Source of the DNA: the human T2T-CHM13v2.0 reference genome, Homo sapiens
Assembly (NCBI RefSeq): GCF_009914755.1
Contig: NC_060927.1
DNA length: 64,000 nt
Reading direction: 5' to 3' (one strand)
The notes under the pieces are model-generated. The model had not been told where the DNA came from, ran no database searches, and saw nothing but the letters and a program-made list of their open reading frames with translations. Position 1 is the first letter of the stretch. Every line of letters starts with the position of its first letter. The translations under genes were made by a program, and so were the position numbers. This document shows, in pieces, positions 40,401 through 49,962 of this stretch.

Positions 40401-41028
40401 GAGAAAATTCCTTGCCGTTACTGGAGGCATGGGGATGTTTGTGCTGCATGCCTGCATGTGCCATTCTTCTGGAAGCATTTGGGCTTTTCAGGTTTTATAT
40501 TATCTGATTGTATGATGAGCCAGGATGGATTTGAGATGGTACCAGCCTCCTAACACCCTGCCGTTAGCAATGCAAGGCTTGTTGTGGGTACAGGCAGGAG
40601 GGCGGGCTGGTCCTGGGGAGAGGCGAGTCATTATTTCTGCCTCAGTGCATTCTAATCATATTTCCCTCTGTCAAACCGAGCAGTACTTTCAATCTTACTG
40701 CAGAGTCTCTGCTTTCCTTCCGCTCGGATCAGAAACAAATCAGCATGATCAAGCCTGGCAGTAGATCATTTAGAGATTTTCGTCTCTGTTAGTAGCCAAG
40801 GGCTGGCAGTGTCTTTTGTATTTGCGTGTGAATGCACGTGTGCGTTTTGCTGTTAAATCGTAGATGGCACTGCCTCCTGTTTTGAAATGCTGTATATTTT
40901 GCACTTTAATTATCAAGAATTGTTGAGGTCATAGAGAAGGACGAATCAGCATAGAACAAACTTCCTAACTGCAAGTCAGCCCAGCATAGTGATTCCGGTT
41001 GTCTGTTTAGTCTTTTATACTTTTCTTT

Positions 41029-41109
41029 CCTTTTTAATTTTTATCTATTTAATTTTATTTTTAATTGACATCTAACATTTGTACATATTCCTGGACTATG
41101 TAGTGATGG
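41029..41109 (-). mobile_element. L1MA5-like extreme 3' end (continues at 48549)
   Basis: T-rich tail then ttttaattgacatctaacatttgtacatatt...gtagtgatg; joins collinearly with gtagtgatgttttaatacatgtaatgtatagtgatcagatcaggg at 48549. Confidence 0.8.
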
Positions 41110-42399
41110 TTTTTTTTCCCATATCTAGGGCATCATGTTTATTTTTTTTCTGTGGGCCATTCTATAAAACACTCAATGGTGACACAATTCAAAGGTAAAA
41201 ATCAGGCTGGGGCATTAGAATTCTTTGGGTAAGGTAAGAGAATCTGGGGGAGGAAAGGGAAATGCTGCGTGGGTTTGGAGCTGCTCCTTTGTTGGAATGC
41301 AGTGGATTCTCCCTCTCCCCTGTGGAAGAGTAGGAAGGCTCGATGCTCGCCTGCCAGTGAGTGGAGTAAGAGCATGACTTGGAGTGTCAGAGTGCATGCA
41401 CAGTTATTGTAGTGATTGAGAAGGCATTAACACGCTTTGGTGGGAAGGCAAAGTCCTTCTGTCCCTGGGGTCTGAGATATCTGTGGTGGGTGGTGTGGGG
41501 GAGAGCTGGGGGAATGGTAGCCCATTTGAGCATATTTCCCAAAAAGAGGCAAATTGACAATAAGTTATTTAAAGTCATACGTTTAACACTATAATAAGAA
41601 AGCCCTGGAGCAAGTGAATTATAAAGTTCTAAAAGGTGGCACCCGGCCTCAGCCACCCCCACCAAGCCAGCCTCTGGCTTCACTGTGACTGGGGAGGGGG
41701 GTGGTGGAAAGGGAAGTGGTTGTGGAGCTAGGCAGAGACTTAGAATGGAAGCTGTCTAAAAACAGCAGGTCATCTCTGGAGAGAGATAGCCTTATGCTGG
41801 GGACCTTATACTGGGGAAGGAGGATTGGAGCATCTGATTGTGGGTTGGATAAGATGGCCCTTCTGGTAGCTCTCAAACCTCATAGGACATAGGAGAGTCT
41901 ATGAGGCAGTGTAAATTAATAAGGAACATTAAGCTTATGAAGGTCTCAGAACAAAACTTTCTACCTCTGTGACCCAGGCATGGGCACCATTTGGCAAAAC
42001 CGTATGTGAAAGGCAAAGGACTTTGAGATGAGGGGAGCATAAAAAGAACGATTTCTGCCTATTTTTAGCCCAGGAAAACAATAACCTGTTTCTTTCATGA
42101 ATGATTTGGATTTGCTGGTTTCCAGATTAGTCAATTTTTTCATGTCTTGCTCTTCCTTCATACCTCCTCCGCCTCTACCAGCCCTTAGACCATACACTTC
42201 TATTCCATCTCCCCTCACCATTCAAGTTGTCTCCAATTTCCAGTCCACTTGCACCAGATTAGCTATCAATAATCCATTAATATATGAAAATATAGCTGTA
42301 TTTTACACTCACACTAGGGCTGTTAGCACACACATGCATTTTCTTTCTTTTTTATTAAAATTTTTTAATTTTTTATTATTTTTTGAGACAGTTTCACTC
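41110..42399 (-). other. Putative L1-mediated 3' transduced segment (~1.3 kb of unique DNA)
   Basis: Lies between the L1 poly(A) at 42400-42420 and a second T tract at 41110-41117; minus-strand AATAAA at 41138-41143; enclosed by TSD gtagtgatg(g/t)ttt. Confidence 0.8.
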
Positions 42400-42627
42400 T
42401 TTTTTTCATTTCTTTTTTTTATTACTATACTTTAAGTTCTAGGGTACATGTGCACAATGTGCAGGTTTGTTACATAAGTATACATGTGCCATGTTGGTGT
42501 GCTGCACCCGTTAACTCGTCATTTACATTAGGTATATCTCCTAATGCTATCCCTTCCCCCTCCCTCTACCCCACGACAGGCCCCGGTGTGTGATGTTCCC
42601 TACCCTGTGTCCAAGTGTTCTCATTGT

Positions 42628-46451
<3,824 letters not shown>

Positions 46452-46514
46452 TATGATGTTAGCTGGTTATTTTACTTGTTAGTTGATTCAGTTTCTTCCT
46501 AGCATTGACGGTCT

Positions 46515-47537
46515 TTACAATTTGGCATGTTTTTGCAGTGGCGGGTACCAGTTGTTCCTTTCCATGTTTAATGCTTCCTGCGGGAGCTCTTTTAAGGCAG
46601 GCCTGGTGGTGACAAAATCTCTCAGCATTTGTTTGTCTGTAAAGGATTTTATTTCTGCTTCACTTATGAAGCTTAGTTTGGCTGGATATGAATTTCTGGG
46701 TTGAAAATTCTTTTCTTTAAGAATGTTGAATATTGGCCCCCACTTTCTTCTGGCTTGCAGAATTTCTGCCGAGACATCCGCTGTTAGTCTGATGGGCTTC
46801 CCTTTGTGGGTAACCGTACCTTTCTCTCTGGCTGCCCTTAACATTTTTTCGTTCATTTTAACTTTGGTGAATCTGACAATTATGTGTCTTGGAGTTGCTC
46901 TTCTCGAGGTCTATCTTTGTGGTGTTCTCTGTATTTTCTGAATTTGAATGTTGGCCTGCCTTGCAAGGTTGGGGAAGTTCTCCTGGATAATATCCTGCAG
47001 AGTGTTTTCCAACTTAGTTCCATTCTCCCTGTCACTTTCAGGTGCACCAATCAGATATAGATTTGGTCTTTTCACATAGTCACATATTTCTTGGAGGCTT
47101 TGTTAGTTTCTTTTTACTCTTTTTTCTCTAAACTTCTCCTCTCGCTTCATTTCATTAATTCGATCTTCCATCACTGATACCCTTTCTTCCACTTGATCAA
47201 ATTGGCTACTGAAGCTTATGCATGCATCATGTAGTTCTGTTGCCGTGGTTTTCAGCTCCATCAGGTCATTTAAGGTCTTCTCTACACTGTTTATTTAGTT
47301 AGCTGTTCGTCTAATCTTTTTTCAAGGTTTTTAGCTTCTTTGCAATGGGTTCGAACATACTCCTTTAGCTCAGAGAAGTTTGTTATTACCAATCATTTGA
47401 AGCCTTCTTCTCTGAATTCATCAGTCATTATCCATCCAGCTTTGTTCTGTTGCTGGTGAGGACCTGTGTTCCTTTGGAGGAGAAGAGGCACTCTGATTTT
47501 TAGAATTTTCAGCTTTTCTGCTCTGGTTTCTCCCCAT
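46515..47537 (-). pseudogene. L1-A ORF1, fragmented
   Basis: C-terminal fragment MLRAAREKG...PPLQKHAKL; upstream part interrupted. Confidence 0.9.
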
Positions 47538-48111
47538 CTTTGTGGTTTTATCTACCTTTGGTCTTCGATGATGGTGACATACAGATGGGTATTTGGTGTG
47601 GATGTCCTTTCTGTTTGTTATTTTTCTTTCTAACAGTCAGGACCCTCAGCTGCAGGTCTGTTGGAATTGGCTGGAGGTCCACTCCAGACCCTGTTTGCCT
47701 GGGTATCACCAGCAGAGGCTGCAGTATAGCAAATATTGCAGAATTGCAAATGTTGCTGCCTGATCCTTCCTTTGGAAGCTTCGTCTCAGAGGGGCAGCCA
47801 GCTGTATGAGGTGTCAGTCGGCCCCTACTGGGAGGTGTCTCTCAGTTAGGCTACTCAGGGGTCAGGGACCCACTTGAGGAGGAAGTCTGTCCATTCTCAG
47901 ATCTCAAACTCCATGCTGGGAGAACAACTACTCTCTTCAAAGCTGTCAGACAGGAACGTTTAAGTCTGTAGAAGTTTCTGCTGCCTTTTTTCAGCTATGC
48001 CCTGCCCCCAGAGGTGAAGTCTACAGAGGCAGGCAGGTGTCCTTGAGCTGTGGTGGGCTCCATGCAGTTTGAGCTTCCCAGCTACTTTGGTTACCTACTC
48101 AAGCCTCAGCA

Positions 48112-48318
48112 ATGGCAGACAACCCTCCCTCAGCCTTGCTGCCACCTTGCAGTTCGATCTCAGACTGCTATGCTAGCAGTGAGTGGGGCTCCATGGGTAT
48201 GGGACCCTGCAAGCCATGCACAGGATATAATCTCCTGGTGTGCCATTTGCTAAGACCGTTGGAAAGGCACAGTATTAGGGTGGGAGTTTCCCGATTTTCC
48301 AGGTACCATCTGTCATGA
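48112..48318 (+). other. L1-A antisense ORF0 homologue (68 aa, open)
   Basis: MADNPPSALLPPCSSISDCYAS... resembles L1 ORF0 MAGAPPPASLPPCSLISDCCAS; expression unknown. Confidence 0.6.
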
Positions 48319-48548
48319 CTTCCTTTGGCTATGAAAGGGAATTCCCTGACCCCTTGCACTTCCTGGGTGAGGCGATGTCCCGCCCTGCTTTGGCTCATGC
48401 TCCGTGGGCTGCACCCATTGTCTGAGAAACCCCAGTGAGATGAACCTGGTACCTCAGTTGGAAATGCAGAAATCACCCGTCTTCTGCCTTGCTCATGTTG
48501 GGAGCTGTAGACTGGAGGTATTCCTATTTGGCCATCTTGGAACCTCCC

Positions 48549-49948
48549 GTAGTGATGTTTTAATACATGTAATGTATAGTGATCAGATCAGGGTAATTAG
48601 CTTATCCATCACATCAAACATGGATCATTTATTTGTGTTGGAAACATTCAGTAACCTTTTTCTAGCTATTTGAAACTGTATAATACATTATTTTTAACTA
48701 TAGTCATCCTACAGAGGTATAGAACACTGGAATTGATTCCTCCTTATCTAGCTGTAGTTTTGTATTCCTTAGCAAATCTCTTCATATCCCTGTGTTTCCT
48801 CTACCCTTCCCAGCCTCTAGTGTACTCTGTTCTACTTTTTACTTCTATGAAATCAACTTTTTTTAGCTTCTGCATTTGAGTGAGAACATGTGGTGTTTAA
48901 CTTTCTGTTCCTGGCTCATTTCACTTAACATAATGTCTTCCAGTTCCAATCATGTTGCCGTGAATGATAGAATTTGATTCTTTTTAATGGCTGAATAGTA
49001 GTCCATTGTAAAGACCAAAAAAAGTTTAGAATTGATAAACTAATACAGTGAAGTTGCAAGATAGAAAATCAATATACAAAAATCAGTAATATTTCTATAT
49101 CTGAAGAATGAATTAGCTGAAAAAGAAATCAGCAAGACAATGCATTTACAATAGCTACAAAAACCAAACCAAACCAAACCAAACAAACAAAAAACAAACA
49201 AAAAACACCTAGAAGTTAGTTTAATCAGGAGATGTAAAACCTCTACAAGAAAAACTATAAAACATAAGTGAAATAAATTGAGGAGAATACAAACAAATGG
49301 AAAGACATCCCATGCTCATAGATTGGAAGAATTAATATTGTTAAAATGAGCATACGACCTAAAGCAACCTACAGGTTCAGTGCAATCCCTGTCAAAATAC
49401 CAATGACATTCTTCACAGAAATAGAAAAAAAAATTCTAAAATTTGTATGAAACCACAACGACCCTGAATAGCCAAAGCAATCCTGAGCAAAAAGAACAAA
49501 GCTGGAGGAATTATACTACCCGACTTCACAATGCACCACAAAGCTATAGTAACCAGAACAGCATGGTACCAGCATAAAAACAGACACATAAACCAATGAA
49601 ACAGAACAGAGAAGTCAGAAATTAATTTACATGTCTACAGCCAACTGATTTTTTGAAAAAGGTGCCAAGGACACTCATTGAGAAAAGGACAGGCTCTCCA
49701 ACAAATGGTGCTGGGAAAACTGGATATCCATATGCAGAAGACTGAAACTAGATTCCCACCTCTCACCCTCTGCAAAAGTAAACTTGAAATGAATTGAAGA
49801 CCTAAATGTAAGACCCAAGAACATAAAGCTGATAGAAGAAAACATAGGGAAAATGCTTCAGGACATTGGTTTGGGAAAGGATTTTATGATTAAGACCTCA
49901 AAAACACAGGCAAAAAAAGCAAAAATAAACAAATGGGATTGTATTAAA
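48549..49948. mobile_element. Remainder of the L1MA5-like element: minus-strand 3' part (48549-~49008) plus inverted plus-strand ORF2 part (~49009-49948)
   Basis: Orientation switch at gtccattg|taaagacc; outer TSD ttata(c/g)ttttcttt 41015-41028 / 49949-49962. Confidence 0.8.
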
Positions 49949-49962
49949 TTATAGTTTTCTTT

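What the first reader, a model, noticed from the sequence alone, without database searches (positions are those of the whole stretch)
41100..48561. Hidden L1 3' transduction: 1.3 kb of apparently unique DNA was probably imported with the full-length L1
Seen: the 5' flank of L1-A (gtagtgatgtttt|aa, 48549-48563, a canonical TTTT/AA L1 endonuclease site) is not repeated next to the L1 poly(A) at 42400. It reappears 1.3 kb further away at 41100-41112 (gtagtgatggttt). That copy overlaps a T8 tract (41110-41117) and has a minus-strand AATAAA (41138-41143) about 20 nt away. Removing everything between the two copies rejoins a continuous L1MA 3' end (...gtacatattcctggactat-gtagtgatgttttaatacatgtaatgtatagtgatcag...). 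Established: L1 read-through past its weak poly(A) signal mobilises downstream DNA. Inference: 41118-42399 is a copy of another locus and tags the source element. A repeat masker would call it unique sequence.
Basis: partly seen in the sequence, partly recalled or inferred. Interest (0 to 1): 0.82.

Follow-up and report, generated by a model that had tools for sequence, protein, structure and literature searches.

The report
Old L1 carrying 1.2 kb passenger DNA
A dead full-length L1 jumping gene in this window dragged along 1.2 kb of ordinary DNA copied from a site 101 Mb away on the same chromosome, a well-known side effect of L1 copying called 3' transduction.

Summary
The observation and the interpretation both hold. 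A full-length, minus-strand L1PA-type element (42421-48548, frames broken) has no target-site duplication (TSD) beside its own poly(A). The 13-nt TSD (12/13 identical) lies at 48549-48561 and 41100-41112. Both copies map to the same positions of an older L1 3' end in 25 of 29 other genomic copies, and the two flanks are collinear in 28 of 29 (0 of 29 for each of five control windows).

The DNA in between, 41123-42345, has one paralogue in the assembly: chr3:135,579,798-135,581,011, 1143 of 1210 aligned bases identical, same orientation, collinear. That locus continues into unrelated unique DNA on both sides. It carries the same AATAAA. It breaks exactly at an endonuclease-like TT|AAGAAA site. 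It holds no L1, so the source element is lost or was never fixed.

The 5.5% divergence matches the 5-9% between this L1 and its nearest relatives, so the two arrived together.

One extra detail: an ~18-nt Alu 3' end with an A-rich tail sits in the L1/passenger junction.

This is a clean new example of textbook L1 3' transduction. It is not a new mechanism, and interest is low to moderate.

The parts
41020..41099 (-). Distal end (last ~60-80 nt and A-rich tail) of the older host L1, cut off from the rest of that element by the insertion
   Evidence: Aligns collinearly to 28 of 29 other copies of the same old L1 3' end. Left-flank alignments start at 41020-41048.
41100..41112 (-). 3' copy of the target-site duplication (+ strand gtagtgatggttt; L1 sense AAACCATCACTAC)
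   Evidence: 12/13 identical to 48549-48561. Maps to the same positions of the old L1 as the other copy in 25 of 29 loci.
41110..41117 (-). Second (terminal) poly(A), A8. Its last three A overlap the A-rich start of the TSD.
   Evidence: Read directly. Absent from the source locus.
41118..41122 (-). 5 nt (L1 sense ATGGG) between the copied DNA and the poly(A) that match neither the source locus nor the host L1. Unexplained; possibly a mutated tail or the last bases before cleavage.
   Evidence: Alignment.
41123..42345 (-). Transduced passenger DNA, 1223 nt, copied from chr3:135,579,798-135,581,011
   Evidence: the only non-self match in the assembly; 1143 of 1210 aligned bases identical, with 6 gap events totalling 16 nt.
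41138..41143 (-). AATAAA polyadenylation signal, 15 nt before the end of homology and 20 nt before the A8
   Evidence: The same hexamer is present at the source locus.
42339..42353 (-). Distal copy of a ~15-22-nt A/G-rich direct repeat (L1 sense AAAAAAGAAAGAAAA) that flanks the mini-Alu. Its last 7 nt are already source-locus sequence.
   Evidence: local alignment score 14, reached or exceeded by 26 of 2000 shuffles.
42354..42402 (-). Alu 3'-end-like piece of ~18 nt (AAAGAGTGAAACTGTCTC) plus a 31-nt A-rich tail, lying in the junction between the L1 tail and the passenger DNA
   Evidence: The same 15-mer is the end of an ordinary Alu at chr9 (L034).
42403..42420 (-). L1's own short poly(A) (A8 at 42413-42420) and the proximal copy of the direct repeat (AAAAAAGAAATGAAAA)
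42421..48548 (-). Full-length L1PA-type element, 6128 nt, with coding frames broken
   Evidence: 5' and 3' ends read. Longest stop-to-stop frame on the minus strand is 262 aa. The 39 non-self relatives scored are 91-95% identical over the 3' 1.2 kb.
48549..48561 (-). 5' copy of the target-site duplication (L1 sense AAAACATCACTAC, preceded by TT, giving TT|AAAA)
48562..49951 (-). Remainder of the older host L1 (3' UTR and end of ORF2). Its extent to the right was only traced as far as the fetched loci allow.
   Evidence: 81-85% identity to the 29 fetched non-self loci (80-85% over all 39 non-self matches); covered by 5 or more alignments at 48550-49009 and 49376-49951.

Best explanation
This is a classical L1 3' transduction. 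A full-length L1PA-type element once sat at chr3:~135,581,011, on the minus strand, inserted at TT|AAGAAAATGC. A transcript from it ran past the element's own weak poly(A) signal. It continued through 1.22 kb of downstream unique DNA and was cleaved and polyadenylated about 15-20 nt after an AATAAA in that DNA. L1 ORF2p nicked a TTTT/AA site inside the 3' end of an older L1 at chr3:34.08 Mb. It reverse-transcribed the whole 7.4-kb RNA there by target-primed reverse transcription, creating a 13-nt TSD around the composite.

The source element itself was not fixed or was later lost, so today's source locus is an empty site.

The event is dated by 5.5% divergence between copy and source. Using recalled substitution rates, that is roughly 20-25 Myr ago, around or just after the ape/Old World monkey split.

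A very short Alu end with its A-rich tail later entered the L1-tail/passenger junction, or had already entered it in the source allele.

Shown: the TSD, host continuity, the unique paralogue, the shared AATAAA, the empty source site and the matching divergence. Inferred: the read-through transcript, the former presence of the source L1 and the date.
For: 1. The TSD flanks the composite and not the L1 alone.
2. Both flanks are halves of one older L1 3' end. They are collinear in 28 of 29 other copies and overlap on the duplicated bases in 25 of 29. Each of five control windows gave 0 of 29.
3. The target is TT|AAAA on the L1 sense strand.
4. 41123-42345 has exactly one other match in the 3.1-Gb assembly: chr3:135,579,797-135,580,996, covering query bases 6-1213 of 1213. 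Both first-look candidates were scored. It is collinear and 94.5% identical.
5. The source locus continues into unrelated unique DNA on both sides and has no poly(A) at the distal end. The window copy is therefore the derived one.
6. AATAAA is present in both copies, 15-20 nt before the A8 in the window.
7. Homology at the L1-proximal end stops at TT|AAGAAAATGC in the source, an endonuclease-like site where a source L1's 3' TSD would begin.
8. Copy/source divergence of 5.5% (JC 0.0575) falls within the 5-9% separating this L1 from the 39 best-scoring relatives. This is as expected if the L1 and the passenger arrived in a single event.
9. Absence of the donor L1 at source loci is commonly reported (PMC4862182, passages read). 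About 10% of reference L1s carry 3' transductions (same paper).
Against: - No L1 is present at the source break in this assembly.
- No full-length young L1 lies in chr3:135,569,800-135,600,899. That interval holds only a 186-nt L1 3' fragment with its own TSD 5.9 kb upstream, an old L1 at 70.7% identity 13 kb upstream, and three further short or diverged L1 matches in the downstream 10 kb (L037, 72-89% identity).
- No sibling L1 carrying the same junction or the same tag was found.
- The terminal poly(A) is only 8 nt, and 5 nt before it (41118-41122) match nothing.
- The L1/passenger junction is not a simple poly(A). It holds an Alu-like piece that needs an extra event.
- The TSD has one mismatch.
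- Orthologous loci in other primates were not examined, because none were available.
Confidence: 0.9

Rival explanations
1. Template-switch or RNA-ligation chimera. ORF2p began reverse transcription on a polyadenylated non-L1 transcript from chr3:135.58 Mb and copied 1.22 kb. It then jumped, possibly via an Alu RNA tail, onto the poly(A) of an L1 RNA and copied that in full. No L1 ever sat at the source locus.
For: The source locus has no L1. The junction is A-rich and contains an Alu-end fragment, which could be read as an intermediate template. The break in the source, AAGAAAA, would offer microhomology to an A-rich acceptor. L1 chimeras with other RNAs are documented (bioRxiv 10.1101/2025.02.02.635956, passages read).
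Against: In the passages of that preprint that I read, the chimeras carry the partner RNA 5' of the L1, not 3' of it. This model needs one or two switches followed by full 6.1-kb synthesis. The Alu-like piece is flanked by its own direct repeats, which fits a separate insertion better. The break falls at an endonuclease-type TT|AA site. Missing donors are common for true transductions.
Confidence: 0.05
2. Two independent insertions. A retrocopy of a chr3:135.58 Mb transcript inserted into the old L1 first. The L1PA later landed exactly at its 5' edge.
For: Each part alone is a common kind of insertion. The 1.22-kb segment ends with AATAAA and a poly(A), like a retrocopy.
Against: The L1 has no TSD of its own. 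The only TSD pairs the L1 5' end with the distal end of the 1.22-kb segment. The L1 would have to hit the exact boundary. Divergences of the L1 and the passenger agree.
Confidence: 0.02
3. A DNA-level duplication, or a chance resemblance of the flanks. On this view the 13-nt repeat and the apparent host continuity are coincidental.
For: None specific. A short repeat with one mismatch could arise by chance: 1 of 100 shuffles gave two matches in the window.
Against: Collinear in 28 of 29 loci against 0 of 29 for each control window. The copied segment ends precisely at the L1 tail and at a signal-plus-poly(A). No flanking DNA of the source was co-duplicated.
Confidence: 0.01

Closest known systems
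L1 3' transduction (read-through of the L1 poly(A) signal). I recall Moran et al. 1999, Goodier et al. 2000, Pickeral et al. 2000 and Szak et al. 2003 from memory and saw them only in the reference list of PMC4862182. PMC156586 and PMC310862 are not held.
   Same: L1, then its own short poly(A), then unique DNA, then a downstream AATAAA and a second poly(A), with the TSD around the whole. The target is TTTT/AA. The parental copy of the unique DNA lies elsewhere, collinear and in sense orientation.
   Different: The source L1 is absent from the parental locus in this assembly. The element is old and dead (about 5.5% copy/source divergence). The junction holds an extra mini-Alu.
Transductions with no donor at the source locus (classes 1 and 2 of PMC4862182, passages read)
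   Same: No full-length donor L1 at the source. Only small unrelated L1 fragments lie nearby.
   Different: Those cases are polymorphic, non-reference events in living populations. This one is a fixed ancient insertion.
L1 chimeric insertions with other RNAs, such as U6/L1 and mRNA/L1 (bioRxiv 10.1101/2025.02.02.635956, passages read)
   Same: A composite of L1 and non-L1 sequence inside a single TSD at an endonuclease site.
   Different: In the passages read, the partner lies 5' of the L1 and arises by template switching, ligation or splicing. Here the partner lies 3' of a complete L1 and ends at its own poly(A) signal.

Membership tests
L1 3' transduction event | L1 3' end with its own poly(A) signal or tail, followed in sense orientation by non-L1 DNA | tested here: met
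   The L1 ends ...AGTATAGTAATAAAAAAAA at 42421-42413 on the minus strand and is followed by 41123-42345.
L1 3' transduction event | Non-L1 DNA ends in a second poly(A) preceded by a polyadenylation signal that belongs to the passenger DNA | tested here: met
   AATAAA lies at 41138-41143 and A8 at 41110-41117. The hexamer is also in the source locus, but the A8 is not.
L1 3' transduction event | A TSD flanks the composite, and none flanks the L1 alone | tested here: met
   The 13-nt TSD is 12/13 identical. Both copies map to the same host positions in 25 of 29 loci. No alternative repeat lies beside 42400.
L1 3' transduction event | Insertion at an L1 endonuclease consensus site (TTTT/AA) | tested here: met
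   + strand ...gatgtttt|aa at 48554-48563.
L1 3' transduction event | A parental copy of the passenger DNA exists elsewhere, collinear and unspliced | tested here: met
   chr3:135,579,798-135,581,011, with 1143 of 1210 aligned bases identical.
L1 3' transduction event | A source L1 lies immediately upstream of the parental copy | tested here: not met
   The source is an empty site with unique DNA across the break, and no full-length young L1 lies within -10 to +20 kb. The literature read here shows that the donor is often missing, so this feature is supportive rather than required.
L1 3' transduction event | Empty target site in outgroup species, with the L1 and the passenger appearing together | not testable with these tools
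   No primate genomes were available. Only the window's own assembly could be searched.
   No repeat library was available. Only pairwise identities could be measured: 91-95% to the nearest L1s, and 81-85% between the host and the 29 fetched loci, 80-85% over all 39 non-self matches.

The most novel reading that the evidence does not exclude
The composite may not have been made by read-through from a lost source L1. Instead, ORF2p may have switched templates from a polyadenylated host transcript of chr3:135.58 Mb, via an Alu tail, onto a full-length L1 RNA. That would be a 3'-side L1 chimera, a class that did not appear in the passages I read of the one L1-chimera catalogue consulted, where partner RNAs lie 5' of the L1. 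If so, some fraction of transductions with no donor at the source would really be such chimeras.
Probability: 0.05. Interest if true: 0.45.

Novelty: new member of a known kind. Interest (0 to 1): 0.25.

Why it matters
- **Annotation.** 1.2 kb that a repeat masker leaves unmasked is in fact retrotransposed DNA with a paralogue 101 Mb away. This matters for mapping, for paralogue-aware variant calling and for dating.
- **History of the element.** The tag records a progenitor L1 allele at chr3:135.58 Mb that no longer exists. The copy/source pair also gives an internal molecular clock for the insertion.
- **Function.** Nothing functional seems to have been moved. There is no Rfam match and no Pfam match in 5 of the 11 open frames of 60 aa or more, including the four longest.
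- **Mechanism.** Nothing new. About 10% of reference L1s are reported to carry such passengers.

Tried and rejected
- **Whole genome as a file.** I used genome searches and fetched stretches instead.
- **Other copies of the old L1 3' end inside the window.** None span the junction, so I used 29 copies from the genome instead.
- **A surviving source or sibling L1.**
  - The 28-nt junction with up to 3 mismatches found only itself and an unrelated chr9 site. That site is an Alu nested in another Alu.
  - A 141-nt junction query gave ordinary L1 3' ends. Forty of 453 candidates were scored, and I inspected 5 loci by alignment. None carried the Alu-like piece.
  - The 31 kb around the source holds no candidate.
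- **The chr9 site as a grandparent locus of a first, short transduction.** Rejected. Its resemblance is explained by a normal Alu end preceded by another Alu's tail.
- **A splice acceptor at the source break.** This would place the source L1 further upstream. The bases before the break could be read as ...TTAAG|, but the window junction leaves no room for an upstream exon, and no suitable L1 lies upstream. I did not pursue it.
- **Exon or RNA-gene cargo.** None detected.
- **Papers.** Szak 2003 and Pickeral 2000 could not be read. I cannot say whether this particular insertion is listed in their tables or in supplements of later catalogues.
Full report
**Observation.** The window holds a full-length L1 on the minus strand.
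- Its 3' end (…CTTAAAGTATAGTAATAAAAAAAA on the sense strand) lies at 42421-42413. Its 5' end (GGGAGGTTCCAAGATGGCC…) lies at 48548.
- The element is 6128 nt long and dead. The longest stop-to-stop frame on its strand is 262 aa.
- Directly 5' of it, in sense orientation, lies TT|AAAACATCACTAC (+ strand gtagtgatgtttt|aa, 48549-48563), a canonical L1 endonuclease site.
- Nothing like this flank lies beside the L1's own poly(A). Within 40900-42430, the only shared 8-mer or longer is at 41101. The best local alignment to 42300-42425 is a T-rich score of 8.
- The repeat is at 41100-41112 (12/13 identical). It abuts a T8 run (41110-41117), with TTTATT (AATAAA in sense) at 41138-41143.
- In the whole window, the 13-mer with up to 1 mismatch occurs only at these two places, against an expectation of 0.19.

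**Host continuity.** I fetched 29 other genomic copies of the older L1 3' end that lies to the right of 48562.
- These loci (L004-L032) are 81-85% identical. Forty of 4030 candidates were scored.
- I aligned the window's left flank (41030-41112) and right flank (48549-48700) to them separately, without joining anything.
- In 28 of 29 loci the two flanks land side by side on the same strand.
- In 25 of 29 they overlap by 2-11 nt (9-11 nt in 20). So 41100-41112 and 48549-48561 both align to the same bases of the old element.
- In L007, L010 and L019 the local alignments stop 6-10 nt short. L018 has no adjacent match.
- Five control windows of equal length, taken from either side of the flank and from inside the insert, gave 0 of 29 each. 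Fifty shuffles of the left flank gave a mean of 0.12 and a maximum of 4.
- The 7.45 kb between the repeats is therefore one insertion into an older L1, and the 13-mer is its target-site duplication.

**Origin of the 1.2 kb.** A search of the window's own 3.1-Gb assembly with 41118-42330 found two first-look candidates, and both were scored. One was the query itself. The other was chr3:135,579,797-135,580,996, on the same strand, covering query bases 6-1213.
- A global alignment fixes the homology at window 41123-42345 and chr3:135,579,798-135,581,011.
- 1143 of 1210 aligned bases are identical. There are 48 transitions (5 of them in CpG context), 19 transversions and 6 gap events totalling 16 nt.
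- At the source, the sequence continues into unrelated unique DNA at both ends.
- The source has the same AATAAA but no poly(A) after it.
- On the L1 sense strand, its L1-proximal break reads …GGCTGTT|AAGAAAATGCATG…. This is a TT|AA-type site, where the 3' TSD of a resident L1 would begin.
- The window copy is bounded by an L1 tail and by a signal, a poly(A) and a TSD. It is therefore the derived copy.

**Source neighbourhood.** No L1 sits at the source today. I fetched chr3:135,569,800-135,600,899, about 31 kb around the locus. BLAST of the window L1 against this interval found the following matches.
- A 186-nt L1 3' fragment lies 5.9 kb upstream at 89.8% identity. It has its own TSD and so is an independent truncated insertion.
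- An old L1 at 70.7% identity lies 13 kb upstream.
- Short or diverged L1 pieces (72-89% identity) lie in the downstream 10 kb (L037).

**Search for a surviving source or sibling.**
- The 28-nt junction with up to 3 mismatches found only itself and a chr9 site. That site is an ordinary Alu nested in another Alu.
- The 141-nt junction returned ordinary L1 ends. Forty of 453 candidates were scored and I inspected five loci by alignment. None had the junction.
- Missing donors are commonly reported for L1 transductions (PMC4862182, passages read).

**Timing.**
- Copy/source divergence is 5.5% (JC 0.0575).
- The 39 best-scoring relatives of the L1's 3' 1.2 kb are 91-95% identical, mostly 93-95%. 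Forty of 12,957 candidates were scored, so closer relatives may exist.
- Both figures measure twice the time since insertion, and they agree. This is as expected if the L1 and the passenger arrived together.
- Using recalled, untested values (about 1.0-1.3×10^-9 substitutions per site per year, and human-macaque divergence of about 6.5%), the event is roughly 20-25 Myr old. I could not test the subfamily name.

**Junction detail.** Between the L1's A8 and the passenger DNA lies AAAGAGTGAAACTGTCTC followed by a 31-nt A-rich tail (42354-42402).
- This looks like the last ~18 nt of an Alu.
- It is flanked by the direct repeats TAAT-A8-GAAATGAAAA and TAAT-A6-GAAAGAAAA. The local alignment score is 14, and 26 of 2000 shuffles reach it.
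- The distal repeat runs into source-derived sequence.
- My preferred reading, at about 60%, is a severely 5'-truncated Alu that inserted into the already formed L1-tail/passenger junction. This could have happened either in the source allele or after arrival.
- An earlier short transduction out of an Alu (serial transduction) is not excluded.
- If the repeats are removed, the primary junction is L1…AATAAAAAA(AA)GA|AAGAAAATGC. This would mean a short first poly(A).

**Cargo.**
- No Rfam family matched at E ≤ 0.1 in 40900-42500.
- No Pfam match at E ≤ 0.01 was found in 5 of the 11 open frames of 60 aa or more, including the four longest.
- The passenger DNA looks like plain non-coding sequence.

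**Mechanism and rivals.**
- The best explanation is read-through of the L1 poly(A) signal from a now-missing source element, followed by target-primed reverse transcription into the old L1. I put this at 0.9.
- A template-switch chimera would give the same final structure and would explain the empty source. It needs one or two switches followed by full-length L1 synthesis, and its partner RNA would lie on the opposite side to the L1 chimeras described in the passages I read. I put it at 0.05.
- Two independent insertions (0.02) or a DNA-level accident (0.01) are contradicted by the single TSD and the host-continuity test.

**Verdict.** Three corrections apply: the copied DNA is 41123-42345, the source locus is now empty, and a mini-Alu sits in the junction. 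The phenomenon is textbook. About 10% of reference L1s are reported to carry 3' transductions (PMC4862182, passage read). The value of the finding is mainly annotational. I cannot say whether this specific insertion is already listed in published catalogues, because Szak 2003 and Pickeral 2000 were not held and I examined no supplements.

Noticed in passing
window 42339-42420: An Alu 3'-end-like piece of ~18 nt with an A-rich tail sits between the L1 tail and the passenger DNA. It is flanked by ~15-22-nt A/G-rich direct repeats (26 of 2000 shuffles reach the score). It is probably a severely truncated Alu insertion, or alternatively an earlier short transduction.
   Followed up: partly
window 41118-41122: Five bases (sense ATGGG) between the end of homology with the source and the terminal A8 match neither the source nor the host. 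They may be a mutated tail, untemplated bases, or diverged bases before the cleavage site.
   Followed up: no
L002 2716 (chr3:135,581,012) and L035 6029-6214 (chr3:135,586,928-135,587,113): The source locus is an empty site. A 186-nt, 5'-truncated L1 3' end with its own ~12-nt TSD and almost no poly(A) lies 5.9 kb upstream in the same orientation and is unrelated to the event.
   Followed up: yes
L034 ~1480-1830 (chr9:~149,888,500): A full-length Alu is inserted into the last ~15 nt of another Alu. This gives the same A-run followed by GAGTGAAACTGTCTC that is seen at the window junction. The resemblance is structural, not a shared origin.
   Followed up: yes
window 49010-49375: Homology of the host old L1 to the 29 other copies drops out here and resumes at 49376. 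This may be a further small insertion or a locally diverged stretch.
   Followed up: no
window 41109 vs 48558: The single TSD mismatch (g vs t on the + strand) was not polarised. The 29 other old-L1 copies could show which copy mutated.
   Followed up: no
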